DNA of 64,000 bases from the human T2T-CHM13v2.0 reference genome, Homo sapiens, in NCBI GenBank assembly GCA_009914755.4, contig CP086569.2:55168001-55232000 (forward strand), written 5' to 3'. Below are positions 1 to 39,214 of this stretch, in pieces. The notes beneath the pieces are model-generated. The model was not told the DNA's origin. It was given only the letters and a program-made list of their open reading frames with translations, and searched no databases. Every line of letters begins with the position of its first letter. The first letter of the stretch is position 1. The position numbers and the translations under genes are program-made.

Positions 1-3000
1 AATGGAACTTTCTTGAATGGACTGGAATCAAACGGAATGGAATGCAATGCAATCAAATGGCATGGAATAAAATAGAATGAAAGAGAATCAAATGGAATTG
101 AATCGAATGGAATCGAATGGATTGGAAAGGAATAGAATGGAATGGAATGGAATTGACTCAAATGGAATGGACTAGAATGGAATGGATTCGAATGGAAGGC
201 AAAGGAATGGAATCTATTGGAATGGACTGTAATGGAATGGAATGGAAGGGATTGGAATGGACTCGAATGGAATGGACTGCAATAGAAAGGATTTGAATGG
301 AATGAAAAAGAATTGAATGGAATAGAACAGAATGGAATCAAATCGAATGAAATGGAATGGAATAGAAAGGAATGGAATGAAATGGAATGGAAAGGATTCG
401 AATGGAATGCAATCGAATGGAATGGAATCGAACGGAATGGAATAAAATGGAAGAAAACTGGCAAGAAATGGAATCGAAATGAATGGAGTGTTATGGAACG
501 GACTCAAAAGGAATTGAATGTAATAGAATGGAGTGGAGTGGACTCGAATATAATGGACTGGAATGGAATGAAATCACATGGAATGGGAACGAATGGAATG
601 GAATGGAAAGGAATGGAATCGAATGGAAAGGAATCGAATGGAAGGGAATGAAATTGAATCAACAGGAATGGAAGGGAATAGAATAGACGGTAATGGAATG
701 GACTCGAATAGAATGGACACGAATGCTCAAATTGAATGGACTCGAATGGAATGGAAACGAAAGGAATGTCATCGAATGGAATTGAATCGATTGGAATGAA
801 ATCGCATAGAATGGAGTGGAATCAAATGGAATTGAATCGAAAGGAAAGGAAGCGAATGGACTGAAATGAAATGGAATGGAATTGAATGGAAAGTAATGCA
901 ATGGAATAGAATGGAACGAAATTTCACGGAATGGAATCAAACTGAATGGAATCAAATCAATGGAATCAAATCAAATGGAATGGAAAGGAATTGAATGGAG
1001 TTGATTGGATTGGATGGGATTGGAATGAAATGTACTGGAAAGGACTCGAATTTCATGAAACGGAATGGAATGAATTGGAACGGAATGGACTCGAATGGAA
1101 TGGAATGTCATGGAATGGCATCAAATGGAATGGCATCAAATGGAATGGAATCGAATGCAATGGAATGCTATGGAATGGAATGGAATGCATTGGAATGGAA
1201 TGTCCTCTAATGGAATGGATTCGAGTGGAATGGAATCGAATATAATGGAGTCGAATGAAATGGAATTGAAAGGAATGGGATCGAATACAATGGAATATAC
1301 TGGAATGTAATGTAATGAACTCGAATGTAATTGACTGGAATGGAATGTACATGAATGGAATGTAATCGAATGGAAAGTAATCCAATGGAATAGAATCTAA
1401 TGCAATAAAATCGACTCAGATAGATTAGAATGTAATGGAATGGAGTGCAGTGCAATGGAATGGAATGGAATGGAATGCAATGGTATGGAATGGAATGGAA
1501 TGGAATGGAATGGAATGGAATGGAATGGGATGGAATGGTATGGAATGGTATGGAATGGATAGTAATGGACTGGAGTGAAATGGACTGGAAAGGAATGGAC
1601 TCAAATTGAAAGGGCTCGAAAGGAATGGAGTCAAATGGAATGGTCTGGAATGGAATGAACACGAATGTAATGCAATCCAATAGAATGGAATCGAATGGCA
1701 TGGAATATAAAGAAATGGATTCGAAGAGAATGGAAACAAATGGAATGGAATTGAATGGAATGGAATTGAATGGAATGGGAACGAATGGAGTGAAATTGTA
1801 TGCAGTAGAAGGGAATAGAATGGAATGCAAGCGAAAGGAAAGGAATGGATTGGAATGGAATGGAATTCATTGGAATGGAAGGGAATGTAGTGTAATGGAC
1901 AGGCCTGGAATAAAGTGGAATGCTACGGTCTCGAATGGAATAAAAATGTATGGAATGGAATACAAAGAAACGGAATCGAATGTCATAGAATGTAATGGAA
2001 TGCAACAAAATGGAATCCAAAATCATTGACTGGAAAGGCTGGGTGTCGAAAGGAATTGACTCCAATGGAATGGAATCGAATGGAATGGAAGTGAATAGAA
2101 TCGAACTAAATCGAATGGAATGGAATTGATAGGAACGGAATGGAAAGGAATGCAATGATTTGGCATGGAATGGAATCGAATGGCATCGAATGGAATGGAA
2201 TGGAATGCAATGGAATGGAATGTATTAGAATGTAATGAACTTTAATGGAATGTACTCGAATGGATTCGACTGGAATGGAATGTTCTGGAAGTGAATGGAC
2301 TCCAATGGAATGGATTCAAAAGGAATGGAATCGTACGGAATGGAATCTAATGGAATGGAATTAAATGGAAATGAATCAAATTGAATAGCACGGAATTGAA
2401 TTGAATGGAATGGAATGCAATGGAATCTAATGAAACGGAAAGGAAAGGAATGGAATGGAATGGAATGGGCTGGAATGGAAAGGAATCGAAACGAATGGAA
2501 TGGAACCGAACTGAAGAGACTGGAATGGAATGCACTGGAATGGAAGGGAGTGTAATGGAAGGTTCTCGAAAAAAATGGAATCGAATGGAATGGAATTGAA
2601 TGGAACGGAATAGAGTCGAATGGAATTGAATGGAATGGAATGGACTAGAGTGAAATGGAATCGAACCACAAGGAATGGAGAGGAATAGAATGGTCTCGAA
2701 TTGAATGGAATCGTATGGAATGGCATCAAACGGAATGGAATGGACAGCCACGGAATGGAATGCACTCGAATGCAATGGAGTCGAAACTAATGGACTGGAA
2801 TAGAATGGACTCGACTGGTACGGACTCCAATGGAATGGAATCGAATGGAAGGGAATCGAACGGAATGGACTCGAAGGGAAAAGACTGCAATGGAAAGGTC
2901 TGGAATGGAATGGAAATTAATGGAATGGAATGGAATCGAATGAAATGGAGTCAAAAGGAATGGAATCGAATGGCAAGAAATCGAATGTAATGGAATCGCA

Positions 3001-3579
3001 AGGAATTGATGTGAACGGAACGGAATGGAATGGAATCCAAAGGAATGGAATAGAATGGAATGGAATCGAATGGAAAGGACTCGAATGGAAATCACTCGAA
3101 TAGAATGCAATTTAATAAAATAGGATCAAATGGAATGGAATGGAATGGAAAGGAATCGAAACGAAAGGAATGGAGACAGATGGAATGGAATGGAACAGAG
3201 AGCAATGCTATAGAATGGAATGGAATCATCTGGAATGGAATTGAATGGAATGGAATAATATGAAATGGAATGGAATGGAATGGAATGGAATGCCCTTGAA
3301 TTAAATGGACTGGAATGGAATGGACTCCAACAGAGTGGAATGGAAAGTGTTGAGATAGAATGGAATGGACTCCTTTGGAATGGTCTAGTATGCAATGCAA
3401 TCGACTGGCAGGGAATCAAAAGGAATGTAATCGAATGGATTGGACTGGAATGCAATGGACTCGAATAGATTGGAAACGGAATGCAAAGGAATGGAATGGA
3501 ATAGTATGGAATGGAATGGAAAGGAATGGAGTGGAATAGACTAGAGTGGAATGGAATGGACTGGAAAGCAATGGACTGG
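1..3579 (+). repeat. HSat3 HOR unit 1 (3579 bp), subtype K
   Basis: The anchor aatggaactttcttgaatgg occurs at 1 and again at 3580. The content matches unit 7 at offset 21389. Confidence 0.9.
1453..1560 (+). repeat. Near-pure (GGAAT)n tract of ~21 pentamers with about 5 substitutions. This is the most homogeneous segment of each HOR. One example is listed; an equivalent tract sits at the same relative position in every unit.
   Basis: Direct read: aatggaatggaatggaatgcaatggtatggaatggaatgg…ggaatgggatggaatggtatggaatggtatggaatggat. The tract length varies between units, for example it is shorter at 8631-8700 and 12160-12215. Confidence 0.85.
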
Positions 3580-6500
3580 AATGGAACTTTCTTGAATGGA
3601 CTGGAATCAAACGGAATGGAATGCAATGCAATCAAATGGCATGGAATAAAATAGAATGAAAGAGAATCAAATGGAATTGAATCGAATGGAATCGAATGGA
3701 TTGGAAAGGAATAGAATGGAATGGAATGGAATTGACTCAAATGGAATGGACTAGAATGGAATGGATTCGAATGGAAGGCAAAGGAATGGAATCTATTGGA
3801 ATGGACTGTAATGGAATGGAATGGAAGGGATTGGAATGGACTCGAATGGAATGGACTGCAATAGAAAGGATTCCAATGGAATGAAAAAGAATTGAATGGA
3901 ATAGAACAGAATGGAATCAAATCGAATGAAATGGAATGGAATAGAAAGGAATGGAATGAAATGGAATGGAAAGGATTCGAATGGAATGCAATCGAATGGA
4001 ATGGAATCGAACGGAATGGAATAAAATGGAAGAAAACTGGCAAGAAATGGAATCGAAATGAATGGAGTATTATGGAACGGACTCAAAAGGAATTGAATGT
4101 AATAGAATGGAGTGGAGTGGACTCGAATATAATGGACTGGAATGGAATGAAATCACATGGAATGGGAACGAATGGAATGGAATGGAAAGGAATGGAATCG
4201 AATGGAAAGGAATCGAATGGAAGGGAATGAAATTGAATCAACAGGAATGGAAGGGAATAGAATAGACGGTAATGGAATGGACTCGAATAGAATGGACACG
4301 AATGCTCAAATTGAATGGACTCGAATGGAATGGAAACGAAAGGAATGTCATCGAATGGAATTGAATCGATTGGAATGAAATCGCATAGAATGGAGTGGAA
4401 TCAAATGGAATTGAATCGAAAGGAAAGGAAGCGAATGGACTGAAATGAAATGGAATGGAATTGAATGGAAAGTAATGCAATGGAATAGAATGGAACGAAA
4501 TTTCACGGAATGGAATCAAACTGAATGGAATCAAATCAATGGAATCTAATCAAATGGAATGGAAAGGAATTGAATGGAGTAGATTGGATTGGATGGGATT
4601 GGAATGAAATCTACTGGAAAGGACTCGAATTTCATGAAACGGAATGGAATGAATTGGAACGGAATGGACTCGAATGGAATGGAATGTCATGGAATGGCAT
4701 CAAATGGAATGGCATCAAATGGAATGGAATCGAATGCAATGGAATGTTATGGAATGGAATGGAATGCATTGGAATGGAATGTCCTCTAATGGAATGGATT
4801 CGAGTGGAATGGAATCGAATATAATGGAGTCGAATGAAATGGAATTGAAAGGAATGGGATCGAATAGAATGGAATATACTGGAATGTAATGTAATGAACT
4901 CGAATGTAATTGACTGGAATGGAATGTACATGAATGGAAGGTAATCGAATGGAAAGTAATCCAATGGAATAGAATCTAATGCAATAAAACCGACTCAGAT
5001 AGAGTAGAATGTAATGGAATGGAGTGCAGTGCAATGGAATGGAATGGAATGGAATGCAATGGAATGGAATGGAATGGAATGGAATGGAATGGAATGGAAT
5101 GGAATGGGATGGAATGGTATGGAATGGTATGGAATGGATAGTAATGGACTGGAGTGAAATGGACTGGAAAGGAATGGACTCAAATTGAAAGGGCTCGAAA
5201 GGAATGGAGTCAAATGGAATGGTCTGGAATGGAATGAACACGAATGTAATGCAATCCAATAGAATGGAATCGAATGGCATGGAATATAAAGAAATGGATT
5301 CGAAGAGAATGGAAACAAATGGAATGGAATTGAATGGAATGGAATTGAATGGAATGGGAACGAATGGAGTGAAATTGTATGCAGTAGAAGGGAATAGAAT
5401 GGAATGCAAGCGAAAGGAAAGGAATGGATTGGAATGGAATGGAATTCATTGGAATGGAAGGGAATGTAGTGTAATGGACAGGCCTGGAATAAAGTGGAAT
5501 GCTACGGTCTCGAATGGAATAAAAATGTATGGAATGGAATACAAAGAAACGGAATCGAATGTCATAGAATGTAATGGAATGCAACAAAATGGAATCCAAA
5601 ATCATTGACTGGAAAGGCTGGGTGTCGAAAGGAATTGACTCCAATGGAATGGAATCGAATGGAATGGAAGTGAATAGAATCGAACTAAATCGAATGGAAT
5701 GGAATTGATAGGAACGGAATGGAAAGGAATGCAATGATTTGGCATGGAATGGAATCGAATGGCATCGAATGGAATGGAATGGAATGCAATGGAATGGAAT
5801 GTATTAGAATGTAATGAACTTTAATGGAATGTACTCGAATGGATTCGACTGGAATGGAATGTTCTGGAAGTGAATGGACTCCAATGGAATGGATTCAAAA
5901 GGAATGGAATCGTACGGAATGGAATCTAATGGAATGGAATTAAATGGAAATGAATCAAATTGAATAGCACGGAATTGAATTGAATGGAATGGAATTCAAT
6001 GGAATCTAATGAAACGGAAAGGAAAGGAATGGAATGGAATGGAATGGGCTGGAATGGAAAGGAATCGAAACGAATGGAATGGAATCGAACTGAAGAGACT
6101 GGAATGGAATGCAATGGAATGGAATGCACTGGAATGGAAGGGAGTGTAATGGAAGGTTCTCGAAAAAAATGGAATCGAATGGAATGGAATTGAATGGAAC
6201 GGAATAGAGTCGAATGGAATTGAATGGAATGGAATGGACTAGAGTGAAATGGAATCAAACCACAAGGAATGGAGAGGAATAGAATGGTCTCGAATTGAAT
6301 GGAATCGTATGGAATGGCATCAAACGGAATGGAATGGACAGCCACGGAATGGAATGCACTCGAATGCAATGGAGTCGAAACTAATGGACTGGAATAGAAT
6401 GGACTCGACTGGTACGGACTCCAATGCAATGGAATCGAATGGAAGGGAATCGAACGGAATGGACTCGAAGGGAAAAGACTGCAATGGAAAGGTCTCGAAT

Positions 6501-7173
6501 GGAATGGAAATTAATGGAATGGAATGGAATGGAATGAAATGGAGTCAAAAGGAATGGAATCGAATGGCAAGAAATCGAATGTAATGGAATCGCAAGGAAT
6601 TGATGTGAACGGAACGGAATGGAATGGAATCCAAAGGAATGGAATAGAATGGAATGGAATCGAATGGAAAGGACTCGAATGGAAATCACTCGAATAGAAT
6701 GCAATTTAATAAAATAGGATCAAATGTAATGGAATGGAATGGAAAGGAATCGAAACGAAAGGAATGGAGACAGATGGAATGGAATAGAACAGAGAGCAAT
6801 GGTATAGAATGGAATGGAATCATCTGGAATGGAATCATCTGGAATGGAATAATATGAAATGGAATGGAATGGAATGGAATGGAATGCCCTTGAATTAAAT
6901 GGACTGGAATGGAATGGACTCGAACAGAGTGGAATGGAAAGTGTTGAGATAGAATGGAATGGACTCCTTTGGAATGGTGTAGTATGCAATGCAATCGACT
7001 GGCAGGGAATCAAAAGGAATGTAATGGAATGGACTGGACTGGAATGCAATGGACTCGAATAGATTGGAAACGGAATGCAAAGAAATGGAATGGAATAGTA
7101 TGGAATGGAATGGAAAGGAATGGAGTGGAATAGACTAGAGTGGAATGGAATGGACTGGAAAGCAATGGACTGG
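3580..7173 (+). repeat. HSat3 HOR unit 2 (3594 bp), subtype L/W
   Basis: Anchor at 3580 and 7174. It carries a 15-bp (3-pentamer) insertion relative to unit 1 near 6110 (ggaatgcaatggaat). The same subtype recurs in units 5 (partly), 8, 11, 14 and 15. Confidence 0.9.
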
Positions 7174-10100
7174 AATGGAACTTTCTTGAATGGACTGGAA
7201 TCAAACGGAATGGAATGCAATGCAATCAAATGGCATGGAATAAAATAGAATGAAAGAGAATCAAATGGAATTGAATCGAATGGAATCGAATGGATTGGAA
7301 AGGAATAGAATGGAATGGAATGGAATGGACTCAAATGGAATGGACTAGAATGGAATGGATTCGAATGGAAGGCAAAGGAATGGAATCTATTGGAATGGAC
7401 TGTAATGGAATGGAATGGAAGGGATTGGAATGGACTCGAATGGAATGGACTGCAATAGAAAGGATTCGAATGGAATGAAAAAGAATTGAATGGAATAGAA
7501 CAGAATGGAATCAAATCGAATGAAATGGAATGGAATAGAAAGGAATGGAATGAAATGGAATGGAAAGGATTCGAATGGAATGCAATCGAATGGAATGGAA
7601 TCGAACGGAATGGAATAAAATGGAAGAAAACTGGCAAGAAATGGAATCGAAATGAATGGAGTGTTATGGAACGGACTCAAAAGGAATTGAATGTAATAGA
7701 ATGGAGTGGAGTGGACTCGAATATAATGGACTGGAATGGAATGAAATCACATGGAATGGGAACGAATGGAATGGAATGGAAAGGAATGGAATCGAATGGA
7801 AAGGAATCGAATGGAAGGGAATGAAATTGAATCAACAGGAATGGAAGGGAATAGAATAGACGGTAATGGAATGGACTCGAATAGAATGGACACGAATGCT
7901 CAAATTGAATGGACTCGAATGGAATGGAAACGAAAGGAATGTCATCGAATGGAATTGAATCGATTGGAATGAAATCGCATAGAATGGAGTGGAATCAAAT
8001 GGAATTGAATCGAAAGGAAAGGAAGCGAATGGACTGAAATGAAATGGAATGGAATTGAATGGAAAGTAATGCAATGGAATAGAATGGAACGAAATTTCAC
8101 GGAATGGAATCAAACTGAATGGAATCAAATCAATGGAATCAAATCAAATGGAATGGAAAGGAATTGAATGGAGTAGATTGGATTGGATGGGATTGGAATG
8201 AAATGTACTGGAAAGGACTCGAATTTCATGAAACGGAATGGAATGAATTGGAACGGAATGGACTCGAATGGAATGGAATGTCATGGAATGGCATCAAATG
8301 GAACGGCATCAAATGGAATAGAATCGAATGCAATGGAATGCTATGGAATGGAATGGAATGCATTGGAATGGAATGTCCTCTAATGGAATGGATTCGAGTG
8401 GAATGGAATCGAATATAATGGAGTCGAATGAAATGGAATTGAAAGGAATGGGATCGAATACAATGGAATATACTGGAATGTAACGTAATGAACTCGAATG
8501 TAATTGACTGGAATGGAATGTACATGAATGGAATGTAATCGAATGGAAAGTAATCCAATGGAATAGAATCTAATGCAATAAAATCGACTCAGATAGAGTA
8601 GAATGTAATGGAATGGAGTTCAGTGCAATGGAATGGAATGGAATGGAATGCAATTGAATGGAATGGAATGGAATGGAATGGAATGGAATGGGATGGAATG
8701 GTATGGAATGGATAGTAATGGACTGGAGTGAAATGGACTGGAAAGGAATGGACTCAAATTGAAAGGGCTCGAAAGGAATGGAGTCAAATGGAATGGTCTG
8801 GAATGGAATGAACACGAATGTAATGCAATCCAATAGAATGGAATCGAATGGCATGGAATATAAAGAAATGGAATCGAAGAGAATGGAAACAAATGGAATG
8901 GAATTGAATGGAATGGGAACGAATGGAGTGAAATTGTATGCAGTAGAAGGGAATAGAATGGAATGCAAGCGAAAGGAAAGGAATGGATTGGAATGGAATG
9001 GAATTCATTGGAATGGAAGGGAATGTAGTGTAATGGACAGGCCTGGAATAAAGTGGAATGCTACGGTCTCGAATGGAATAAAAATGTATGGAATGGAATG
9101 CAATGAAACGGAATCGAATGTCATAGAATGTAATGGAATGCAAAAAAATGGAATCCAAAATCATTGACTGGAAAGGCTGGGTGTCGAAAGGAATTGACTC
9201 CAATGGAATGGAATCGAATGGAATGGAAGTGAATAGAATCGAACTAAATCGAATGGAATGGAATTGATAGGAACGGAATGGAAAGGAATGCAATGATTTG
9301 GCATGGAATGGAATCGAATGGCATCGAATGGAATGGAATGGAATGCAATGGAATGGAATGTATTAGAATGTAATGAACTTTAATGGAATGTACTCGAATG
9401 GATTCGACTGGAATGGAATGTTCTGGAAGTGAATGGACTCCAATGGAATGGATTCAAAAGGAATGGAATCGTACGGAATGGAATCTAATGGAATGGAATT
9501 AAATGGAAATGAATCAAATTGAATAGCACGGAATTGAATTGAATGGAATGGAATGCAATGGAATCTAATGAAACGGAAAGGAAAGGAATGGAATGGAATG
9601 GAATGGACTGGAATGGAAAGGAATCGAAACGAATGGAATGGAATCGAACTGAAGAGACTGGAATGGAATGCACTGGAATGGAAGGGAGTGTAATGGAAGG
9701 TTCTCGAAAAAAATGGAATCGAATGGAATGGAATTGAATGGAACGGAATAGAGTCGAATGGAATTGAATGGAATGGAATGGACTAGAGTGAAATGGAATC
9801 GAACCACAAGGAATGGACAGGAATAGAATGGTCTCGAATTGAATGGAATCGTATGGAATGGCATCAAACGGAATGGAATGGACAGCCACGGAATGGAATG
9901 CACTCGAATGCAATGGAGTCGAAACTAATGGACTGGAATAGAATGGACTCGACTGGTACGGACTCCAATGGAATGGAATCGAATGGAAGGGAATCGAACG
10001 GAATGGACTCGAAGGGAAAAGACTGCAATGGAAAGGTCTCGAATGGAATGGAAATTAATGGAATGGAATGGAATCGAATGAAATGGAGTCAAAAGGAATG

Positions 10101-10717
10101 GAATCGAATGGCAAGAAATCGAATGTAATGGAATCACAAGGAATTGATGTGAACGGAACGGAATGGAATGGAATCCAAAGGAATGGAATAGAATGGAATG
10201 GAATCGAATGGAAAGGACTCGAATGGAAATCACTCGAATAGAATGCAATTTAATAAAATAGGATCAAATGTAATGGAATGGAATGAAAAGGAATCGAAAC
10301 GAAAGGAATGGAGACAGATGGAATGGAATGGAACAGAGAGCAATGGTATAGAATGGAATGGAATCATCTGGAATGGAATTGAATGGAATGGAATAATATG
10401 AAATGGAATGGAATGGAATGGAATGGAATGCCCTTGAATTAAATGGACTGGAATGGAATGGACTCGAACAGAGTGGAATGGAAAGTGTTGAGATAGAATG
10501 GAATGGACTCCTTTGGAATGGTGTAGTATGCAATGCAATCGACTGGCAGGGAATCAAAAGGAATGTAATCGAATGGATTGGACTGGAATGCAATGGACTC
10601 GAATAGATTGGAAACGGAATGCAAAGGAATGGAATGGAATAGTATGGAATGGAATGGAAAGGAATGGAGTGGAATAGACTAGAGTGGAATGGAATGGACT
10701 GGAAAGCAATGGACTGG
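7174..10717 (+). repeat. HSat3 HOR unit 3 (3544 bp)
   Basis: Anchor at 7174 and 10718. It is shorter through in-register pentamer deletions, for example in the (GGAAT)n tract at 8631-8700 and one missing 15-bp copy near 8900. Confidence 0.9.
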
Positions 10718-13700: not shown

Positions 13701-14246
13701 AATCCAAAGGAATGGAATAGAATGGAATGGAATCGAATGGAAAGGACTCGAATGGAAATCACTCGAATAGAATGCAATTTAATAAAATAGGATCAAATGG
13801 AATGGAATGGAATGGAAAGGAATCGAAACGAAAGGAATGGAGACAGATGGAATGGAATGGAACAGAGAGCAATGCTATAGAATGGAATGGAATCATCTGG
13901 AATGGAATTGAATGGAATGGAATAATATGAAATGGAATGGAATGGAATGGAATGGAATGCCCTTGAATTAAATGGACTGGAATGGAATGGACTCCAACAG
14001 AGTGGAATGGAAAGTGTTGAGATAGAATGGAATGGACTCCTTTGGAATGGTCTAGTATGCAATGCAATCGACTGGCAGGGAATCAAAAGGAATGTAATCG
14101 AATGGATTGGACTGGAATGCAATGGACTCGAATAGATTGGAAACGGAATGCAAAGGAATGGAATGGAATAGTATGGAATGGAATGGAAAGGAATGGAGTG
14201 GAATAGACTAGAGTGGAATGGAATGGACTGGAAAGCAATGGACTGG
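10718..14246 (+). repeat. HSat3 HOR unit 4 (3529 bp)
   Basis: Anchor at 10718 and 14247. There are 15-bp deletions near 11080 and 11130 relative to neighbouring units. Confidence 0.9.
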
Positions 14247-20800: not shown

Positions 20801-21389
20801 TGGAATCGCAAGGAATTGATGTGAACGGAACGGAATGGAATGGAATCCAAAGGAATGGAATAGAATGGAATGGAATCGAATGGAAAGGACTCGAATGGAA
20901 ATCACTCGAATAGAATGCAATTTAATAAAATAGGATCAAATATAATGGAATGGAATGGAAAGGAATCGAAACGAAAGGAATGGAGACAGATGGAATGGAA
21001 TAGAACAGAGAGCAATGGTATAGAATGGAATGGAATCATCTGGAATGGAATTGAATGGAATGGAATAATATGAAATGGAACGGAATGGAATGGAATGGAA
21101 TGCCCTTGAATTAAATGGACTGGAATGGAATGGACTCGAACAGAGTGGAATGGAAAGTGTTGAGATAGAATGGAATGGACTCCTTTGGAATGGTGTAGTA
21201 TGCAATGCAATCGACTGGCAGGGAATCAAAAGGAATGTAATCGAATGGATTGGACTGGAATGCAATGGACTCGAATAGATTGCAAACAGAATGAAAAGGA
21301 ATGGAATGGAATAGTATGGAATGGAATGGAAAGGAATGGAGTGGAATAGACTAGAGTGGAATGGAATGGACTGGAAAGCAATGGACTGG
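17816..21389 (+). repeat. HSat3 HOR unit 6 (3574 bp)
   Basis: Anchor at 17816 and 21390. It has no counterpart in the second super-repeat copy. Confidence 0.9.
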
Positions 21390-24300: not shown

Positions 24301-24968
24301 GGAAATTAATGGAATGGAATGGAATCGAATGAAATGGAGTCAAAAGGAATGGAATCGAATGGCAAGAAATCGAATGTAATGGAATCGCAAGGAATTGATG
24401 TGAACGGAACGGAATGGAATGGAATCCAAAGGAATGGAATAGAATGGAATGGAATCGAATGGAAAGGACTCGAATGGAAATCACTCGAATAGAATGCAAT
24501 TTAATAAAATAGGATCAAATGGAATGGAATGGAATGGAAAGGAATCGAAACGAAAGGAATGGAGACAGATGGAATGGAATGGAACAGAGAGCAATGCTAT
24601 AGAATGGAATGGAATCATCTGGAATGGAATTGAATGGAATGGAATAATATGAAATGGAATGGAATGGAATGGAATGGAATGCCCTTGAATTAAATGGACT
24701 GGAATGGAATGGACTCCAACAGAGTGGAATGGAAAGTGTTGAGATAGAATGGAATGGACTCCTTTGGAATGGTCTAGTATGCAATGCAATCGACTGGCAG
24801 GGAATCAAAAGGAATGTAATCGAATGGATTGGACTGGAATGCAATGGACTCGAATAGATTGGAAACGGAATGCAAAGGAATGGAATGGAATAGTATGGAA
24901 TGGAATGGAAAGGAATGGAGTGGAATAGACTAGAGTGGAATGGAATGGACTGGAAAGCAATGGACTGG
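21390..24968 (+). repeat. HSat3 HOR unit 7 (3579 bp), a copy of unit 1
   Basis: Anchor at 21390. ORF-track translations are identical to unit 1 at a constant offset of 21389, for example 313-651 equals 21702-22040. Confidence 0.9.
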
Positions 24969-27900: not shown

Positions 27901-28562
27901 TAATGGAATGGAATGGAATGGAATGAAATGGAGTCAAAAGGAATGGAATCGAATGGCAAGAAATCGAATGTAATGGAATCGCAAGGAATTGATGTGAACG
28001 GAACGGAATGGAATGGAATCCAAAGGAATGGAATAGAATGGAATGGAATCGAATGGAAAGGACTCGAATGGAAATCACTCGAATAGAATGCAATTTAATA
28101 AAATAGGATCAAATGTAATGGAATGGAATGGAAAGGAATCGAAACGAAAGGAATGGAGACAGATGGAATGGAATAGAACAGAGAGCAATGGTATAGAATG
28201 GAATGGAATCATCTGGAATGGAATCATCTGGAATGGAATAATATGAAATGGAATGGAATGGAATGGAATGGAATGCCCTTGAATTAAATGGACTGGAATG
28301 GAATGGACTCGAACAGAGTGGAATGGAAAGTGTTGAGATAGAATGGAATGGACTCCTTTGGAATGGTGTAGTATGCAATGCAATCGACTGGCAGGGAATC
28401 AAAAGGAATGTAATGGAATGGACTGGACTGGAATGCAATGGACTCGAATAGATTGGAAACGGAATGCAAAGAAATGGAATGGAATAGTATGGAATGGAAT
28501 GGAAAGGAATGGAGTGGAATAGACTAGAGTGGAATGGAATGGACTGGAAAGCAATGGACTGG
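24969..28562 (+). repeat. HSat3 HOR unit 8 (3594 bp), a copy of unit 2
   Basis: Anchor at 24969. The length and variants are identical to unit 2, for example 3126-4043 equals 24515-25432. Confidence 0.9.
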
Positions 28563-31500
28563 AATGGAACTTTCTTGAATGGACTGGAATCAAACGGAAT
28601 GGAATGCAATGCAATCAAATGGCATGGAATAAAATAGAATGAAAGAGAATCAAATGGAATTGAATCGAATGGAATCGAATGGATTGGAAAGGAATAGAAT
28701 GGAATGGAATGGAATGGACTCAAATGGAATGGACTAGAATGGAATGGATTCGAATGGAAGGCAAAGGAATGGAATCTATTGGAATGGACTGTAATGGAAT
28801 GGAATGGAAGGGATTGGAATGGACTCGAATGGAATGGACTGCAATAGAAAGGATTCGAATGGAATGAAAAAGAATTGAATGGAATAGAACAGAATGGAAT
28901 CAAATCGAATGAAATGGAATGGAATAGAAAGGAATGGAATGAAATGGAATGGAAAGGATTCGAATGGAATGCAATCGAATGGAATGGAATCGAACGGAAT
29001 GGAATAAAATGGAAGAAAACTGGCAAGAAATGGAATCGAAATGAATGGAGTGTTATGGAACGGACTCAAAAGGAATTGAATGTAATAGAATGGAGTGGAG
29101 TGGACTCGAATATAATGGACTGGAATGGAATGAAATCACATGGAATGGGAACGAATGGAATGGAATGGAAAGGAATGGAATCGAATGGAAAGGAATCGAA
29201 TGGAAGGGAATGAAATTGAATCAACAGGAATGGAAGGGAATAGAATAGACGGTAATGGAATGGACTCGAATAGAATGGACACGAATGCTCAAATTGAATG
29301 GACTCGAATGGAATGGAAACGAAAGGAATGTCATCGAATGGAATTGAATCGATTGGAATGAAATCGCATAGAATGGAGTGGAATCAAATGGAATTGAATC
29401 GAAAGGAAAGGAAGCGAATGGACTGAAATGAAATGGAATGGAATTGAATGGAAAGTAATGCAATGGAATAGAATGGAACGAAATTTCACGGAATGGAATC
29501 AAACTGAATGGAATCAAATCAATGGAATCAAATCAAATGGAATGGAAAGGAATTGAATGGAGTAGATTGGATTGGATGGGATTGGAATGAAATGTACTGG
29601 AAAGGACTCGAATTTCATGAAACGGAATGGAATGAATTGGAACGGAATGGACTCGAATGGAATGGAATGTCATGGAATGGCATCAAATGGAACGGCATCA
29701 AATGGAATAGAATCGAATGCAATGGAATGCTATGGAATGGAATGGAATGCATTGGAATGGAATGTCCTCTAATGGAATGGATTCGAGTGGAATGGAATCG
29801 AATATAATGGAGTCGAATGAAATGGAATTGAAAGGAATGGGATCGAATACAATGGAATATACTGGAATGTAACGTAATGAACTCGAATGTAATTGACTGG
29901 AATGGAATGTACATGAATGGAATGTAATCGAATGGAAAGTAATCCAATGGAATAGAATCTAATGCAATAAAATCGACTCAGATAGAGTAGAATGTAATGG
30001 AATGGAGTTCAGTGCAATGGAATGGAATGGAATGGAATGCAATTGAATGGAATGGAATGGAATGGAATGGAATGGAATGGGATGGAATGGTATGGAATGG
30101 ATAGTAATGGACTGGAGTGAAATGGACTGGAAAGGAATGGACTCAAATTGAAAGGGCTCGAAAGGAATGGAGTCAAATGGAATGGTCTGGAATGGAATGA
30201 ACACGAATGTAATGCAATCCAATAGAATGGAATCGAATGGCATGGAATATAAAGAAATGGAATCGAAGAGAATGGAAACAAATGGAATGGAATTGAATGG
30301 AATGGGAACGAATGGAGTGAAATTGTATGCAGTAGAAGGGAATAGAATGGAATGCAAGCGAAAGGAAAGGAATGGATTGGAATGGAATGGAATTCATTGG
30401 AATGGAAGGGAATGTAGTGTAATGGACAGGCCTGGAATAAAGTGGAATGCTACGGTCTCGAATGGAATAAAAATGTATGGAATGGAATGCAATGAAACGG
30501 AATCGAATGTCATAGAATGTAATGGAATGCAAAAAAATGGAATCCAAAATCATTGACTGGAAAGGCTGGGTGTCGAAAGGAATTGACTCCAATGGAATGG
30601 AATCGAATGGAATGGAAGTGAATAGAATCGAACTAAATCGAATGGAATGGAATTGATAGGAACGGAATGGAAAGGAATGCAATGATTTGGCATGGAATGG
30701 AATCGAATGGCATCGAATGGAATGGAATGGAATGCAATGGAATGGAATGTATTAGAATGTAATGAACTTTAATGGAATGTACTCGAATGGATTCGACTGG
30801 AATGGAATGTTCTGGAAGTGAATGGACTCCAATGGAATGGATTCAAAAGGAATGGAATCGTACGGAATGGAATCTAATGGAATGGAATTAAATGGAAATG
30901 AATCAAATTGAATAGCACGGAATTGAATTGAATGGAATGGAATGCAATGGAATCTAATGAAACGGAAAGGAAAGGAATGGAATGGAATGGAATGGACTGG
31001 AATGGAAAGGAATCGAAACGAATGGAATGGAATCGAACTGAAGAGACTGGAATGGAATGCACTGGAATGGAAGGGAGTGTAATGGAAGGTTCTCGAAAAA
31101 AATGGAATCGAATGGAATGGAATTGAATGGAACGGAATAGAGTCGAATGGAATTGAATGGAATGGAATGGACTAGAGTGAAATGGAATCGAACCACAAGG
31201 AATGGACAGGAATAGAATGGTCTCGAATTGAATGGAATCGTATGGAATGGCATCAAACGGAATGGAATGGACAGCCACGGAATGGAATGCACTCGAATGC
31301 AATGGAGTCGAAACTAATGGACTGGAATAGAATGGACTCGACTGGTACGGACTCCAATGGAATGGAATCGAATGGAAGGGAATCGAACGGAATGGACTCG
31401 AAGGGAAAAGACTGCAATGGAAAGGTCTCGAATGGAATGGAAATTAATGGAATGGAATGGAATCGAATGAAATGGAGTCAAAAGGAATGGAATCGAATGG

Positions 31501-32106
31501 CAAGAAATCGAATGTAATGGAATCACAAGGAATTGATGTGAACGGAACGGAATGGAATGGAATCCAAAGGAATGGAATAGAATGGAATGGAATCGAATGG
31601 AAAGGACTCGAATGGAAATCACTCGAATAGAATGCAATTTAATAAAATAGGATCAAATGTAATGGAATGGAATGAAAAGGAATCGAAACGAAAGGAATGG
31701 AGACAGATGGAATGGAATGGAACAGAGAGCAATGGTATAGAATGGAATGGAATCATCTGGAATGGAATTGAATGGAATGGAATAATATGAAATGGAATGG
31801 AATGGAATGGAATGGAATGCCCTTGAATTAAATGGACTGGAATGGAATGGACTCGAACAGAGTGGAATGGAAAGTGTTGAGATAGAATGGAATGGACTCC
31901 TTTGGAATGGTGTAGTATGCAATGCAATCGACTGGCAGGGAATCAAAAGGAATGTAATCGAATGGATTGGACTGGAATGCAATGGACTCGAATAGATTGG
32001 AAACGGAATGCAAAGGAATGGAATGGAATAGTATGGAATGGAATGGAAAGGAATGGAGTGGAATAGACTAGAGTGGAATGGAATGGACTGGAAAGCAATG
32101 GACTGG
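28563..32106 (+). repeat. HSat3 HOR unit 9 (3544 bp), a copy of unit 3
   Basis: Anchor at 28563. It has the same 3544-bp length as unit 3 and the same diagnostic variants at offset 21389. Confidence 0.9.
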
Positions 32107-35100
32107 AATGGAACTTTCTTGAATGGACTGGAATCAAACGGAATGGAATGCAATGCAATCAAATGGCATGGAATAAAATAGAATGAAAGAGAATCAAATG
32201 GAATTGAATCGAATGGAATCGAATGGATTGGAAAGGAATAGAATGGAATGGAATGGAATTGACTCAAATGGAATGGACTAGAATGGAATGGATTCGAATG
32301 GAAGGCAAAGGAATGGAATCTATTGGAATGGACTGTAATGGAATGGAATGGAAGGGATTGGAATGGGCTCGAATGGAATGGACTGCAATAGAAAGGATTC
32401 GAATGGAATGAAAAAGAATTGAATGGAATAGAACAGAATGGAATCAAATCGAATGAAATGGAATGGAATGAAATGGAATGGAAAGGATTCGAATGGAATG
32501 CAATCGAATGGAATGGAATCGAACGGAATGGAATAAAATGGAAGAAAACTGGCAAGAAATGGAATCGAAATGAATGGAGTGTTATGGAACGGAGTCAAAA
32601 GGAATTGAATGTAATAGAATGGAGTGGAGTGGACTCGAATATAATGGACTGGAATGGAATGAAATCACATGGAATGGGAACGAATGGAATGGAATGGAAA
32701 GGAATGGAATCGAATGGAAAGGAATCGAATGGAAGGGAATGAAATTGAATCAACAGGAATGGAAGGGAATAGAATAGACGGTAATGGAATGGACTCGAAT
32801 AGAATGGACAGGAATGCTCAAATTGAATGGACTCGAATGGAATGGAAACGAAATGAATGTCATCGAATGGAATTGAATCGATTGGAATGAAATCATATAG
32901 AATGGAGTGGAATCAAATGGAATTGAATCGAAAGGAAAGGAAACAAATGGACTGAAATGAAATGGAATGGAATTGAATGGAAAGTTATGTAATGGAATAG
33001 AATGGAACGAAATTTCACGGAATGGATTCAAACTGAATGGAATCAAATCAATGGAATCAAATCAAATGGAATGGAAAGGAATTGAATGGAGTAGATTGGA
33101 TTGGATGGGATTGGAATGAAATGTACTGGAAAGGACTCGAATTTCATGAAACGGAATGGAATGAATTGGAACGGAACGGACTCGAATGGAATGGAATGTC
33201 ATGGAATGGCATCAAATGGAATGGCATCAAATGGAATGGAATCGAATGCAATGGAATGCTATGGAATGGAATGGAATGCATTGGAATGGAATGTCCTCTA
33301 ATGGAATGGATTCGAGTGGAATGGAATCGAATATAATGGAGTCGAATGAAATGGAATTGAAAGGAATGGGATCGAATACAATGGAATATACTGGAATGTA
33401 ATGTAATGAACTCGAATGTAATTGACTGGAATGGAATGTACATGAATGGAATGTAATCGAATGGAAAGTAATCCAATGGAATAGAATCTAATGCAATAAA
33501 ATCGACTCAGATAGAGTAGAATGCAATGGAATGGAGTGCAGTGCAATGGAATGGAATGGAATGCAATGGAATGGAATGGAATGGAATGGAATGGAATGGA
33601 ATGGAATGGTGTGGAATGGATAGTAATGGACTGGAGTGAAATGGACTGGAAAGGAATGGACTCAAATTGAAAGGGCTCGAAAGGAATGGAGTCAAATGGA
33701 ATGGTCTGGAATGGAATGAACACGAATGTAATGCAATCCAATAGAATGGAATCGAATGGCATGGAATATAAAGAAATGGAATCGAAGAGAATGGAAACAA
33801 ATGGAATGGAATTGAGTGGAATCGAATTGAATGGAATGGGAACGAATGGAGTGAAATTGTATGCAGTAGAAGAGAATAGAATGGAATGCAAGCGAAAGGA
33901 AAGGAATGGATTGGAATGGAATGGAATTCATTGGAATGGAAGGGAATGTAGTGTAATGGACAGGCCTGGAATAAAGTGGAATGCTACGGTCTCGAATGGA
34001 ATAAAAATGTATGGAATGGAATGCAATGAAACGGAATCGAATGTCATAGAATGTAATGAAATGCAAAAAAATGGAATCCAAAATCATTGACTGGAAAGGC
34101 TGGGTGTCGAAAGGAATTGACTCCAATGGAATGGAATCGAATGGAATGGAAGTGAATAGAATCGAACTAAATCGAATGGAATGGAATTGATAGGAACGGA
34201 ATGGAAAGGAATGCAATGATTTGGCATGGAATGGAATCGAATGGCATCGAATGGAATGGAATGGAATGCAATGGAATGGAATGTATTAGAATGTAATGAA
34301 CTTTAATGGAATGTACTCGAATGGATTCGACTGGAATGGAATGTTCTGGAAGTGAATGGACTCCAATGGAATGGATTCCAAAGGAATGGAATCGTACGGA
34401 ATGGAATCTAATGGAATGGAATTAAATGGAAATGAATCAAATTGAATAGCACGGAATTGAATTGAATGAAATGGAATGCAATGGAATCTAATGAAACGGA
34501 AAGGAAAGGAATGGAATGGAATGGAATGGGCTGGAATGGAAAGGAATCGAAACGAATGGAATGGAATCGAACTGAAGAGACTGGAATGGAATGCACTGGA
34601 ATGGAAGGGAGTGTAATGGAAGGTTCTCGAAAAAAATGGAATCGAATGGAATGGAATTGAATGGAAAGGAATAGAGTCGAATGAAATTGAATGGAATGGA
34701 ATGGACTAGAGTGAAATGGAATCGAACCACAAGGAATGGACAGGAATAGAATGGTCTCGAATTGAATGGAATCGTATGGAATGGCATCAAACGGAATGGA
34801 ATGGACAGCCACGGAATGGAATGCACTCGAATGCAATGGAGTCGAAACTAATGGACTGGAATAGAATGGACTCGACTGGTACGGACTCCAATGGAATGGA
34901 ATCGAATGGAAGGGAATCGAACGGAATGGACTCGAAGGGAAAAGACTGCAATGGAAAGGTCTCGAATGGAATGGAAATTAATGGAATGGAATGGAATCGA
35001 ATGAAATGGAGTCAAAAGGAATGGAATCGAATGGCAAGAAATCGAATGTAATGGAATCGCAAGGAATTGATGTGAACGGAACGGAATGGAATGGAATCCA

Positions 35101-35640
35101 AAGGAATGGAATAGAATGGAATGGAATCGAATGGAAAGGACTCGAATGGAAATCACTCGAATAGAATGCAATTTAATAAAATAGGATCAAATGGAATGGA
35201 ATGGAATGGAAAGGAATCGAAACGAAAGGAATGGAGACAGATGGAATGGAATGGAACAGAGAGCAATGCTATAGAATGGAATGGAATCATCTGGAATGGA
35301 ATTGAATGGAATGGAATAATATGAAATGGAATGGAATGGAATGGAATGGAATGCCCTTGAATTAAATGGACTGGAATGGAATGGACTCCAACAGAGTGGA
35401 ATGGAAAGTGTTGAGATAGAATGGAATGGACTCCTTTGGAATGGTCTAGTATGCAATGCAATCGACTGGCAGGGAATCAAAAGGAATGTAATCGAATGGA
35501 TTGGACTGGAATGCAATGGACTCGAATAGATTGGAAACGGAATGCAAAGGAATGGAATGGAATAGTATGGAATGGAATGGAAAGGAATGGAGTGGAATAG
35601 ACTAGAGTGGAATGGAATGGACTGGAAAGCAATGGACTGG
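32107..35640 (+). repeat. HSat3 HOR unit 10 (3534 bp), a copy of unit 4
   Basis: Anchor at 32107. It has the same 15-bp deletions as unit 4 and is 5 bp longer overall. Confidence 0.9.
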
Positions 35641-38600
35641 AATGGAACTTTCTTGAATGGACTGGAATCAAACGGAATGGAATGCAATGCAATCAAATGG
35701 CATGGAATAAAATAGAATGAAAGAGAATCAAATGGAATTGAATCGAATGGAATCGAATGGATTGGAAAGGAATAGAATGGAATGGAATGGAATTGACTCA
35801 AATGGAATGGACTAGAATGGAATGGATTCGAATGGAAGGCAAAGGAATGGAATCTATTGGAATGGACTGTAATGGAATGGAATGGAAGGGATTGGAATGG
35901 ACTCGAATGGAATGGACTGCAATAGAAAGGATTCCAATGGAATGAAAAAGAATTGAATGGAATAGAACAGAATGGAATCAAATCGAATGAAATGGAATGG
36001 AATAGAAAGGAATGGAATGAAATGGAATGGAAAGGATTCGAATGGAATGCAATCGAATGGAATGGAATCGAACGGAATGGAATAAAATGGAAGAAAACTG
36101 GCAAGAAATGGAATCGAAATGAATGGAGTATTATGGAACGGACTCAAAAGGAATTGAATGTAATAGAATGGAGTGGAGTGGACTCGAATATAATGGACTG
36201 GAATGGAATGAAATCACATGGAATGGGAACGAATGGAATGGAATGGAAAGGAATGGAATCGAATGGAAAGGAATCGAATGGAAGGGAATGAAATTGAATC
36301 AACAGGAATGGAAGGGAATAGAATAGACGGTAATGGAATGGACTCGAATAGAATGGACACGAATGCTCAAATTGAATGGACTCGAATGGAATGGAAACGA
36401 AAGGAATGTCATCGAATGGAATTGAATCGATTGGAATGAAATCGCATAGAATGGAGTGGAATCAAATGGAATTGAATCGAAAGGAAAGGAAGCGAATGGA
36501 CTGAAATGAAATGGAATGGAATTGAATGGAAAGTAATGCAATGGAATAGAATGGAACGAAATTTCACGGAATGGAATCAAACTGAATGGAATCAAATCAA
36601 TGGAATCTAATCAAATGGAATGGAAAGGAATTGAATGGAGTAGATTGGATTGGATGGGATTGGAATGAAATCTACTGGAAAGGACTCGAATTTCATGAAA
36701 CGGAATGGAATGAATTGGAACGGAATGGACTCGAATGGAATGGAATGTCATGGAATGGCATCAAATGGAATGGCATCAAATGGAATGGAATCGAATGCAA
36801 TGGAATGTTATGGAATGGAATGGAATGCATTGGAATGGAATGTCCTCTAATGGAATGGATTCGAGTGGAATGGAATCGAATATAATGGAGTCGAATGAAA
36901 TGGAATTGAAAGGAATGGGATCGAATAGAATGGAATATACTGGAATGTAATGTAATGAACTCGAATGTAATTGACTGGAATGGAATGTACATGAATGGAA
37001 GGTAATCGAATGGAAAGTAATCCAATGGAATAGAATCTAATGCAATAAAACCGACTCAGATAGAGTAGAATGTAATGGAATGGAGTGCAGTGCAATGGAA
37101 TGGAGTGGAATTGAATGCAAAGGAATGGAATGGAATGGAATGGAATGGAATGGAATGGAATGGAATGGAATGGGATGGAATGGTATGGAATGGATAGAAA
37201 TGGACTGGAGTGAAATGGACTGGAAAGGAATGGACTCAAATTGAAAGGGCTCGAAAGGAATGGAGTCAAATGGAATGGTCTGGAATGGAATGAACACGAA
37301 TGTAATGCAATCCAATAGAATGGAATCGAATGGCATGGAATATAAAGAAATGGATACGAAGAGAATGGAAACAAATGGAATGGAATTGAATGGAATGGAA
37401 TTGAATGGAATGGGAACGAATGGAGTGAAATTGTATGCAGTAGAAGGGAATAGAATGGAATGCAAGCGAAAGGAAAGGAATGGATTGGAATGGAATGGAA
37501 TTCATTGGAATGGAAGGGAATGTAGTGTAATGGACAGGCCTGGAATAAAGTGGAATGCTACGGTCTCGAATGGAATAAAAATGTATGGAATGGAATGCAA
37601 TGAAACGGAATCGAATGTCATAGAATGTAATGGAATGCAACAAAATGGAATCCAAAATCATTGACTGGAAAGGCTGGGTGTCGAAAGGAATTGACTCCAA
37701 TGGAATGGAATCGAATGGAATGGAAGTGAATAGAATCGAACTAAATCGAATGGAATGGAATTGATAGGAACGGAATGGAAAGGAATGCAATGATTTGGCA
37801 TGGAATGGAATCGAATGGCATCGAATGGAATGGAATGGAATGCAATGGAATGGAATGTATTAGAATGTAATGAACTTTAATGGAATGTACTCGAATGGAT
37901 TCGACTGGAATGGAATGTTCTGGAAGTGAATGGACTCCAATGGAATGGATTCAAAAGGAATGGAATCGTACGGAATGGAATCTAATGGAATGGAATTAAA
38001 TGGAAATGAATCAAATTGAATAGCACGGAATTGAATTGAATGGAATGGAATGCAATGGAATCTAATGAAACGGAAAGGAAAGGAATGGAATGGAATGGAA
38101 TGGGCTGGAATGGAAAGGAATCGAAACGAATGGAATGGAATCGAACTGAAGAGACTGGAATGGAATGCACTGGAATGGAAGGGAGTGTAATGGAAGGTTC
38201 TCGAAAAAAATGGAATCGAATGGAATGGAATTGAATGGAACGGAATAGAGTCGAATGGAATTGAATGGAATGGAATGGACTAGAGTGAAATGGAATCGAA
38301 CCACAAGGAATGGAGAGGAATAGAATGGTCTCGAATTGAATGGAATCATATGGAATGGCATCAAACGGAATGGAATGGACAGCCACGGAATGGAATGCAC
38401 TCGAATGCAATGGAGTCGAAACTAATGGACTGGAATAGAATGGACTCGACTGGTACGGACTCCAATGGAATGGAATCGAATGGAAGGGAATCGAACGGAA
38501 TGGACTCGAAGGGAAAAGACTGCAATGGAAAGGTCTCGAATGGAATGGAAATTAATGGAATGGAATGGAATCGAATGAAATGGAGTCAAAAGGAATGGAA

Positions 38601-39214
38601 TCGAATGGCAAGAAATCGAATGTAATGGAATCGCAAGGAATTGATGTGAACGGAACGGAATGGAATGGAATCCAAAGGAATGGAATAGAATGGAATGGAA
38701 TCGAATGGAAAGGACTCGAATGGAAATCACTCGAATAGAATGCAATTTAATAAAATAGGATCAAATATAATGGAATGGAATGGAAAGGAATCGAAACGAA
38801 AGGAATGGAGACAGATGGAATGGAATAGAACAGAGAGCAATGGTATAGAATGGAATGGAATCATCTGGAATGGAATTGAATGGAATGGAATAATATGAAA
38901 AGGAACGGAATGGAATGGAATGGAATGCCCTTGAATTAAATGGACTGGAATGGAATGGACTCGAACAGAGTGGAATGGAAAGTGTTGAGATAGAATGGAA
39001 TGGACTCCTTTGGAATGGTGTAGTATGCAATGCAATCGACTGGCAGGGAATCAAAAGGAATGTAATCGAATGGATTGGACTGGAATGCAATGGACTCGAA
39101 TAGATTGCAAACAGAATGCAAAGGAATGGAATGGAATAGTATGGAATGGAATGGAAAGGAATGGAGTGGAATAGACTAGAGTGGAATGGAATGGACTGGA
39201 AAGCAATGGACTGG
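35641..39214 (+). repeat. HSat3 HOR unit 11 (3574 bp)
   Basis: Anchor at 35641 and 39215. Its 5' part equals unit 5 at offset ~21394 and its 3' end is of the unit-6 type. Confidence 0.9.

What the first reader, a model, noticed from the sequence alone, without database searches (positions are those of the whole stretch)
1..39214. A 21,389-bp super-periodicity: a block of HOR units is duplicated as a unit
The anchor positions 1, 3580, 7174 and 10718 recur at 21390, 24969, 28563 and 32107, an identical offset of 21389 bp. Anchor 14247 recurs at 35641, offset 21394. The unit-specific lengths (3579, 3594, 3544, ~3530) and the unit-specific variants are copied in the same order. Examples are SVMERTQ versus SIMERTQ in the 112-aa translation, and FHWNPF/LCWSPF in the 305-aa translation. 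Unit 1 and unit 7 are more than 99% identical, whereas adjacent units differ more. The first copy has six units. The second has five, with the unit-6 equivalent missing and unit 11 a hybrid of the unit-5 and unit-6 types. This is the footprint of a recent multi-unit (~21 kb) duplication followed by unequal exchange. It represents a higher tier of array organisation above the 3.57-kb HOR.
Basis: seen in the sequence. Interest (0 to 1): 0.55.

Follow-up and report, generated by a model that had tools for sequence, protein, structure and literature searches.

The report
Local 21-kb duplication inside Y-chromosome satellite
The window is human Y-type DYZ1 satellite DNA in which a block of six 3.57-kb repeat units was recently copied in tandem and then trimmed by further unequal exchanges. 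The feature is real, but this is the ordinary, already described way such satellite arrays evolve.

Summary
All 64 kb are a (GGAAT)n-derived satellite with 3.53-3.59 kb units, and its documented features match DYZ1/HSat3A6 of human Yq12. Units 1-5 recur as units 7-11 at offset 21,389/21,394 bp. They differ by 3, 1, 0, 7 and 11 differences per ~3.57 kb, against 20-39 between adjacent block-1 units. The lengths recur in the same order (3579, 3594, 3544, 3529/3534), and exact repeats of 4,726 and 4,484 bp lie on that diagonal. Unit 11 is a clean chimera of the unit-5 head and the unit-6 tail.

39215-40878 is a 1,664-bp remnant, an A-type head joined to an M-type tail across 19 nt of microhomology. 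40879-51610 is a collapsed copy (A, M/A hybrid, M) that contains a very recent one-unit duplication. Units 16-19 (51611-64000) have no near-identical partner, so this is a local, decaying amplification and not an array-wide period.

The best explanation is in-register unequal sister-chromatid exchange, followed by unit-level deletions and duplications. These processes are already documented for Yq12. The ORFs are pentamer artefacts. Interest is low and the kind is already known.

The parts
1..21389 (+). Copy 1 of the block, six units: A 1-3579, B 3580-7173, C 7174-10717, D 10718-14246, E 14247-17815, F 17816-21389. The left edge is cut by the window start, so the block may continue upstream.
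   Evidence: Anchors, pairwise matrix, variant table.
21390..39214 (+). Copy 2, five units: A' 21390-24968, B' 24969-28562, C' 28563-32106, D' 32107-35640, M (E/F chimera) 35641-39214. Over 1-15774 vs 21390-37168 there are 9 substitutions and a net 5-bp indel (about 99.93 % identity).
36812..38766 (+). Interval within unit 11 that contains the E x F exchange point. It narrows to 36812-37164 if the 5-bp deletion in unit 5 pre-dates the exchange.
   Evidence: the last U6-vs-U11 head difference is at column 1170, and the first U5-vs-U11 substitution is at column 3146; exact runs 18987-21075 = 36812-38900 and 15728-17367 = 37127-38766.
39215..40878 (+). Truncated 1,664-bp unit (U12). An A-type head, identical to U13 for 1,157 nt, is joined out of register to an M-type tail. 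The tail is identical to U15 for 526 nt but to U11 for only 308 nt. It lacks the HaeIII site.
40353..40371 (+). 19-nt microhomology AATGGAATGGAATCGAATG at the U12 out-of-register junction (unit column ~1138 joined to ~3068).
   Evidence: The junction 38-mer is unique in the window.
40879..51610 (+). Collapsed further copy: U13 (A type, 3-4 substitutions from U1/U7), U14 (M/B head + A tail hybrid) and U15 (M type, 5 substitutions from U11).
42304..49428 (+). Very recent one-unit (3,579-bp) tandem duplication: 42304-45849 is identical to 45883-49428 (3,546 bp exact). Unit 14 is its hybrid junction unit, with the exchange point between unit columns ~1424 and ~1473.
2903..5043 (+). 2,141-bp patch spanning a unit boundary (A tail + B head). 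It is exactly identical to the D tail + E/M head at 13570-15710, and it recurs at 24292-26432, 34964-37104 and 43781-45921. An in-register exchange within this patch would remove three units and give the 'A, M' adjacency seen in 40879-51610.
51611..64000 (+). Units 16-19 of other variant types. They have no near-identical partner in the window (best ~99.0 %), and they mark the right-hand end of the amplified block.

Best explanation
The window lies inside a DYZ1 (HSat3A6) array of the human-type Y long-arm heterochromatin. A block of six consecutive 3.57-kb units (A-F, 21,389 bp) was amplified in tandem. The most likely mechanism is in-register unequal sister-chromatid exchange, with replication-based template switching as an equivalent alternative. 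The copies were then eroded by the same process acting at smaller offsets. (i) An E x F exchange removed one unit and produced the chimera M (unit 11). (ii) An exchange within the 2.1-kb patch shared by the A|B and D|E boundaries removed three units, leaving 'A, M'. (iii) A one-unit duplication produced hybrid unit 14. (iv) An out-of-register event at 19 nt of microhomology left the 1,664-bp unit 12. The structure is a neutral footprint of satellite turnover and not a functional element. What is shown directly: the copy structure, the chimeric units, the exact-repeat tracts and the junction. What is inferred: the molecular mechanism, the order of events and the age. The age is about 740 generations (~2x10^4 years) at the published Yq12 rate, and up to several 10^5 years at euchromatic rates.
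For: Identity as DYZ1:
- GGAAT-family pentamers dominate.
- There is one HaeIII site per unit, giving fragments of 3529-3579 bp.
- GC is 38.7 % and there is one CpG per 36 bp. Published DYZ1 values are a 3,569-bp modal HaeIII fragment, 38 % GC and 1 CpG per 35 bp.
- 3,579 bp is a published periodicity peak on human chrY.
- The Y-specific primer pair I recalled from memory matches once in each of the 17 units that span that part of the repeat. Sixteen matches are exact and one has a single mismatch. The amplicon is 154 bp.

Duplication:
- Offset 21,389 stands out in the k-mer histogram.
- Lag-6 pairs show 0-11 differences, against 20-39 between adjacent block-1 units.
- Exact repeats of 4.7 and 4.5 kb lie at that offset.
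- The F|A boundary recurs three times: 21389|21390, 39214|39215 and 40878|40879.

Exchange products:
- U11 and U14 are clean single-crossover hybrids.
- The U12 junction carries 19-nt microhomology.
- All unit lengths differ by multiples of 5 bp.

Literature on mechanism:
- A pedigree study reports about one whole-unit structural change per Y transmission (in DYZ2), 3.86e-7 mutations/bp/generation, and 29 % of new mutations resembling gene conversion.
- Satellite periodicity is reported to vary 'hyper-locally'.
Against: - No reads or flanking sequence are available, so assembly correctness and the extent of the block to the left cannot be checked.
- The event order is ambiguous. U15 carries an E/F chimera with the same or an overlapping exchange interval as U11 but is an outgroup to U5/U6/U11 at columns 1464, 1480 and 3290. 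U13 is likewise an outgroup to U1/U7. A single 'duplicate, then delete' history therefore does not fit every site. Recurrent exchange or gene conversion must be invoked.
- Sister-chromatid exchange cannot be distinguished from replication slippage or break-induced replication using sequence alone.
- The primer sequences could not be confirmed in the searchable literature.
Confidence: 0.85

Rival explanations
1. The six-unit block is a genuine second-tier repeat unit, a 21.4-kb nested period that is being propagated. It would extend for many copies to the left of the window, and the window would catch its decaying right-hand edge.
For: Four successive A-type heads and four F/M-type tails occur in the same order across 1-51610. 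The F|A boundary recurs three times. The window starts exactly on a block copy, so the left extent is unknown. Hyper-local new periodicities are reported for HSat arrays.
Against: Only two copies are intact. The spacings of the A heads are 21,389, 17,825 and 1,664 bp, so they are not periodic. Units 16-19 do not take part. Nothing in the retrieved DYZ1 literature mentions a ~21-kb period.
Confidence: 0.12
2. Assembly artefact: a false tandem duplication, or mis-joined reads, in a near-identical satellite.
For: Satellite arrays with >98 % identical units are the hardest regions to assemble. Recent work still flags errors in many Yq12 assemblies. No read evidence is available here.
Against: The two copies are not identical. 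They differ by 9 substitutions and a 5-bp indel over 15.8 kb, by a whole-unit difference, and by different downstream contexts. The Y is haploid, so haplotype-induced false duplication does not apply. The hybrid units are clean single crossovers of the kind produced biologically. None of these points excludes a mis-join.
Confidence: 0.05
3. Long-tract gene conversion homogenised two pre-existing, independently arranged stretches of units, without any change in copy number.
For: Gene conversion is documented in Yq12: 17-29 % of de novo changes. Kilobase-scale identical patches shared by otherwise different units exist in the window, for example the 2,141-bp patch.
Against: The near-identical tract is at least 15.8 kb and continuous through four unit boundaries. 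It copies unit-specific indels and lengths in order. The only conversion-tract figure retrieved is far shorter: a median of 542 bp in Y palindromes.
Confidence: 0.03

Closest known systems
DYZ1 / HSat3A6 arrays of human Yq12 (Nakahori 1986 from memory; Rhie et al. T2T-Y; Hallast et al. 2023)
   Same: Pentamer-derived ~3.57-kb unit, one HaeIII site per unit, 38-39 % GC, about one CpG per 36 bp, units >98 % identical, and the 3,579-bp length class.
   Different: Nothing differs at the family level. The retrieved papers describe Mb-scale and array-scale structure, not this particular six-unit block.
Iterative tandem duplications and small-scale deletions/expansions within Yq12 satellite blocks (T2T-Y, Extended Data Fig. 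8)
   Same: Recent duplications are recognised from long exact matches on off-diagonals. They are followed by smaller deletions and expansions and attributed to unequal exchange.
   Different: The scale differs: 21 kb here, against hundreds of kb to 5 Mb in the paper. The paper's fine-scale example is from HSat1B/DYZ2, not DYZ1.
Hyper-local nested-tandem-repeat periodicities in HSat2/3 arrays (Altemose et al., NTRprism)
   Same: The periodicity seen above the basic unit is restricted to part of an array.
   Different: Here only two intact copies exist. NTRprism-type periodicities normally rest on many copies.
Alpha-satellite HOR structural variants and HOR-haplotype expansions
   Same: Hybrid units are created by in-register unequal crossover, and variant blocks expand locally.
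   Different: Alpha-satellite HORs consist of discrete ~171-bp monomers. DYZ1 units do not, so 'HOR' is loose usage here.

Membership tests
DYZ1 / HSat3A6 (human Yq12 satellite) | Derived from the (CATTC)n/(GGAAT)n pentamer | tested here: met
   The five rotations of GGAAT are by far the commonest 5-mers, at ~4,200-4,470 occurrences each. All unit-length differences are multiples of 5 bp.
DYZ1 / HSat3A6 (human Yq12 satellite) | ~3.5-3.6-kb unit defined by one HaeIII (GGCC) site; modal fragment 3,569 bp | tested here: met
   There are 18 GGCC sites. Fragments are 3529, 3534, 3559, 3564, 3569, 3574 and 3579 bp. The exceptions are one extra site in unit 6 and one missing in truncated unit 12.
DYZ1 / HSat3A6 (human Yq12 satellite) | Composition of 38 % GC and ~1 CpG per 35 bp | tested here: met
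   38.7 % GC and one CpG per 36.3 bp, compared with Hallast et al..
DYZ1 / HSat3A6 (human Yq12 satellite) | Amplifiable with the classical Y-specific DYZ1 primer pair (154-bp product) | tested here: met
   Both primers match once in each of 17 units, 154 bp apart, with a single mismatch in one unit. The primer sequences are from my memory (Kogan et al. 1987) and were not found in the searchable library.
DYZ1 / HSat3A6 (human Yq12 satellite) | Located on Yq12, interspersed with DYZ2/HSat1B blocks | not testable with these tools
   The window contains no DYZ2, and no human genome reference is available. The metagenome and 'bacterial' contigs that carry the same repeat are contamination fragments.
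Tandem segmental duplication by in-register unequal exchange | Two head-to-tail copies in the same orientation, with inter-copy identity well above the array background | tested here: met
   Lag-6 divergence is 0.00-0.31 % against a background mean of 0.90 %. Only 18 of 100,000 permutations reach it.
Tandem segmental duplication by in-register unequal exchange | Hybrid (chimeric) units at exchange points, with the unit register preserved | tested here: met
   U11 (E/F) and U14 (M/A) are single-crossover chimeras of normal length. U12 is the one out-of-register product.
Array-wide second-tier period ('super-HOR') | Three or more consecutive copies at a constant period, with lag-k identity above lag-1 identity throughout the array | tested here: not met
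   The A-type heads lie at 1, 21390, 39215 and 40879, so the spacing is not constant. Positional lag-6 divergence beyond unit 8 is 0.90-1.36 %. The flanks are not available.
Higher-order repeat in the strict alpha-satellite sense | Unit built from an integer number of discrete monomers of similar length | not tested
   I did no monomer decomposition. Only an internal ~105-bp-offset self-match at 76 % identity was seen. The literature classes such HSat3 units as nested tandem repeats.

The most novel reading that the evidence does not exclude
The A-F block is an emerging 21.4-kb repeat tier of DYZ1. It would continue for many copies upstream of the window and would be specific to one Y lineage. 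That would provide a datable, haplogroup-informative marker of how new periodicities are born inside Yq12 satellite arrays.
Probability: 0.12. Interest if true: 0.35.

Novelty: already known. Interest (0 to 1): 0.15.

Why it matters
It matters little beyond being a clean worked example. At base resolution the window shows one exchange process acting at four scales in a single 52-kb stretch of Y heterochromatin: 21.4 kb, 10.7 kb, 3.58 kb and an out-of-register 1.9 kb. The hybrid units and a 19-nt microhomology junction are preserved. Such unit-variant 'barcodes' could be used to validate Yq12 assemblies or to trace Y lineages. The phenomenon itself, local multi-unit duplication and unequal exchange in DYZ1/DYZ2, is already described.

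Tried and rejected
- **Coding potential.** The long ORFs on both strands translate to pentamer-derived low-complexity peptides (MEWNG..., HSIPF...). The only Pfam matches are Extensin_1 (36.6 bits, cut-off 105) and Pentapeptide_4 (23 bits, cut-off 38). I rejected them as artefacts.
- **Structured RNA.** No Rfam family reaches its gathering score in 1-22000.
- **A three-unit sub-period inside the block** (A B C / D E F). A vs D, B vs E and C vs F diverge by 1.05, 0.76 and 1.02 %, no better than background. Only a 2,141-bp patch is shared, so I rejected an older duplication and read it as a conversion or exchange patch.
- **Unit 12 as a simple 1,664-bp tandem duplication of the U11|U13 boundary.** This is disfavoured. 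The U12 tail is identical to U15 for 526 nt but to U11 for only 308 nt.
- **Independent confirmation from public collections.** The U12 junction 38-mer is absent from metagenome contigs. A positive-control primer found 33 metagenome and 6 'bacterial genome' contigs carrying DYZ1. These are either short consensus-like contigs or noisy long-read contigs at 88-98 % identity, so they cannot test unit order or the 21-kb period. A 25-mer allele survey on them was confounded by non-unique pentamer k-mers.
- **Literature confirmation of the primer sequences.** None was found.
Full report
**What the sequence is**

The whole 64-kb window is strongly strand-asymmetric: A 40 %, G 30 %, T 21 %, C 8 %, with GC 0.38-0.40 throughout. 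The five rotations of GGAAT dominate its 5-mer content. It is tiled by units of 3,529-3,594 bp. Anchors lie at 1, 3580, 7174, 10718, 14247, 17816, 21390, 24969, 28563, 32107, 35641, 39215, 40879, 44458, 48037, 51611, 55190, 58749 and 62308.

Several features match published DYZ1/HSat3A6 of human Yq12:
- Each full unit has one HaeIII site, giving fragments of 3,529-3,579 bp.
- GC is 38.7 % and there is one CpG per 36 bp. Published values are a modal virtual HaeIII fragment of 3,569 bp, 38 % GC and 1 CpG per 35 bp.
- 3,579 bp is a reported periodicity peak on human chrY.
- A Y-specific DYZ1 primer pair that I recalled from memory (Kogan et al. 1987) matches once in each of the 17 units that span that part of the repeat, 154 bp apart, with a single mismatch in one unit. 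I could not confirm those primer sequences in the searchable literature.

The chromosomal position cannot be tested with these tools.

**Check of the observation**

- In a 16-mer offset histogram, 21,389 is the second strongest offset after 3,579.
- In a MAFFT alignment of all 19 units, U1/U7 differ by 3 substitutions, U2/U8 by 1 and U3/U9 by 0. U4/U10 differ by 5 substitutions plus a net 5-bp indel, and U5/U11 by 10 plus one indel. Adjacent units in the first block differ by 19-36 substitutions.
- Lag-6 divergence is 0.00-0.31 % against an all-pair mean of 0.90 %. Only 18 of 100,000 unit permutations do as well.
- The two longest exact repeats in the window, 4,726 and 4,484 bp, both lie at offset 21,389.

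**Anatomy**

The variant table defines these unit types: A (U1, U7, U13), B (U2, U8), C (U3, U9), D (U4, U10), E (U5), F (U6) and M (U11, U15).

Unit 11 is identical to U5 from column 0 to 3145, apart from a 5-bp indel. It is identical to U6 from column 1171 to 3284. It is therefore a single-crossover E/F chimera, with the exchange point in window 36812-38766.

The pattern does not stop at 39214:
- **U12 (39215-40878)** is only 1,664 bp. It has an A-type head identical to U13 for 1,157 nt and an M-type tail identical to U15 for 526 nt (but to U11 for only 308 nt). The two are joined out of register across the 19-nt microhomology AATGGAATGGAATCGAATG at 40353-40371.
- **U13** is A type, 3-4 substitutions from U1/U7.
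- **U15** is M type, 5 substitutions from U11.
- **U14** is an M(or B)-head / A-tail hybrid. The stretch 42304-45849 is identical to 45883-49428 (3,546 bp, offset 3,579). U14 is therefore the junction unit of a very recent one-unit duplication of an 'A, M' pair.
- **The 'A, M' adjacency** is what an in-register exchange would produce inside the 2,141-bp patch that is exactly shared by the A|B and D|E boundaries (2903-5043 = 13570-15710). Such an exchange would remove three units.

The stretch 1-51610 therefore reads (A B C D E F)(A B C D M)(A/M remnant)(A M/A M). The F|A or M|A boundary recurs three times. Units 16-19 (51611-64000) have no partner better than about 99.0 %.

**Mechanism**

The sequence shows tandem, same-orientation copies, preserved register, clean chimeric units, a microhomology junction and length changes in multiples of 5 bp. 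From these I infer unequal sister-chromatid exchange, or an equivalent replication-based process, acting at offsets of 6, 3 and 1 units, plus one out-of-register event.

This agrees with published work on Yq12:
- About one whole-unit structural change per Y transmission (observed in DYZ2), 3.86e-7 mutations/bp/generation, and 29 % of new mutations resembling interlocus gene conversion.
- HSat periodicity that 'can vary across an array ... expanding hyper-locally'.

Nine substitutions over 15,774 bp give about 740 generations (~2x10^4 years) at the Yq12 rate. Euchromatic rates would give several 10^5 years. This is a rough inference.

**Unresolved**

The order of events is not unique. U1 and U7 share derived alleles that U13 lacks, and U5/U6/U11 share derived alleles that U15 lacks. 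Yet U11 and U15 are E/F chimeras with the same or overlapping exchange intervals. Either the E x F exchange happened twice, which is plausible because E and F share ~2 kb that is identical apart from a 5-bp indel, or gene conversion has blurred the history.

The left edge of the block is cut by the window. Assembly correctness cannot be checked without reads.

**Other checks**

- The long ORFs are pentamer artefacts with only sub-threshold Pfam matches.
- No Rfam family matches.
- Public metagenome and 'bacterial genome' contigs contain DYZ1 as human contamination, but they are too short or too noisy to test the 21-kb structure.

**Verdict**

It is a clear instance of an already described process in a well-known satellite. 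Novelty and interest are low.

Noticed in passing
window 39215-40878 (junction 40353-40371): A 1,664-bp truncated DYZ1 unit. An A-type head is joined to an M-type tail across 19 nt of microhomology, and the tail matches unit 15 better than the neighbouring unit 11. The junction 38-mer is unique in the window and absent from the metagenome collection.
   Followed up: yes
window 42304-45849 and 45883-49428: Two exactly identical 3,546-bp tracts one unit apart: a one-unit tandem duplication with at most one substitution since it formed. It is at least as recent as the 21-kb duplication, and probably more recent.
   Followed up: yes
window 2903-5043, 13570-15710, 24292-26432, 34964-37104, 43781-45921: A 2,141-bp patch spanning a unit boundary is exactly identical between otherwise different unit pairs (A|B and D|E). 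It looks like a gene-conversion or exchange patch and is a likely hotspot for three-unit deletions.
   Followed up: partly
window 15728-17367 and 19302-20941: Units 5 and 6 share an exactly identical 1,640-bp mid-section although their heads and tails differ. This is the substrate for the E x F exchange that made the unit 11/15 chimera.
   Followed up: partly
window 18355-18358: Unit 6 has a private extra HaeIII (GGCC) site, created by a C at 18357. It splits the unit's restriction fragment into 2,217 + 1,357 bp. Unit 12 lacks the site, which gives a 5,243-bp fragment.
   Followed up: partly
whole window: All unit lengths (3529, 3534, 3544, 3559, 3569, 3574, 3579, 3594, 1664) differ by multiples of 5 bp, so indels occur in whole pentamers.
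   Followed up: partly
window 1-502 and each unit start: The first ~400 bp of each unit also match themselves at a 105-bp offset with ~76 % identity. This suggests an older internal sub-repeat within the 3.57-kb unit.
   Followed up: no
L034-L039 (e.g. BMRF01000076.1 Actinomadura cremea JCM 3308; NZ_JBFAJD010000109.1 Streptomyces sp.): Contigs deposited as bacterial genome sequence carry an exact 23-nt match to a DYZ1 marker sequence. They are almost certainly human male DNA contamination in those assemblies.
   Followed up: partly
L004/L005 (BNJT01001888.1, 55 kb), L013/L027 (BNJU01004413.1, 55 kb), L021 (BNJU01001848.1, 52 kb): Metagenome contigs longer than 50 kb whose stored stretches are tandem DYZ1 units: human Y heterochromatin assembled within metagenomes. 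Identity to the window is only 91-98 %, with many indels, consistent with noisy long reads.
   Followed up: partly
window 3126-4043 (- strand) and many others: ORFs of 100-305 aa occur on both strands and in several frames because GGAAT/ATTCC repeats contain no stop codons. The weak Extensin and pentapeptide Pfam similarities fall below the curated cut-offs.
   Followed up: yes
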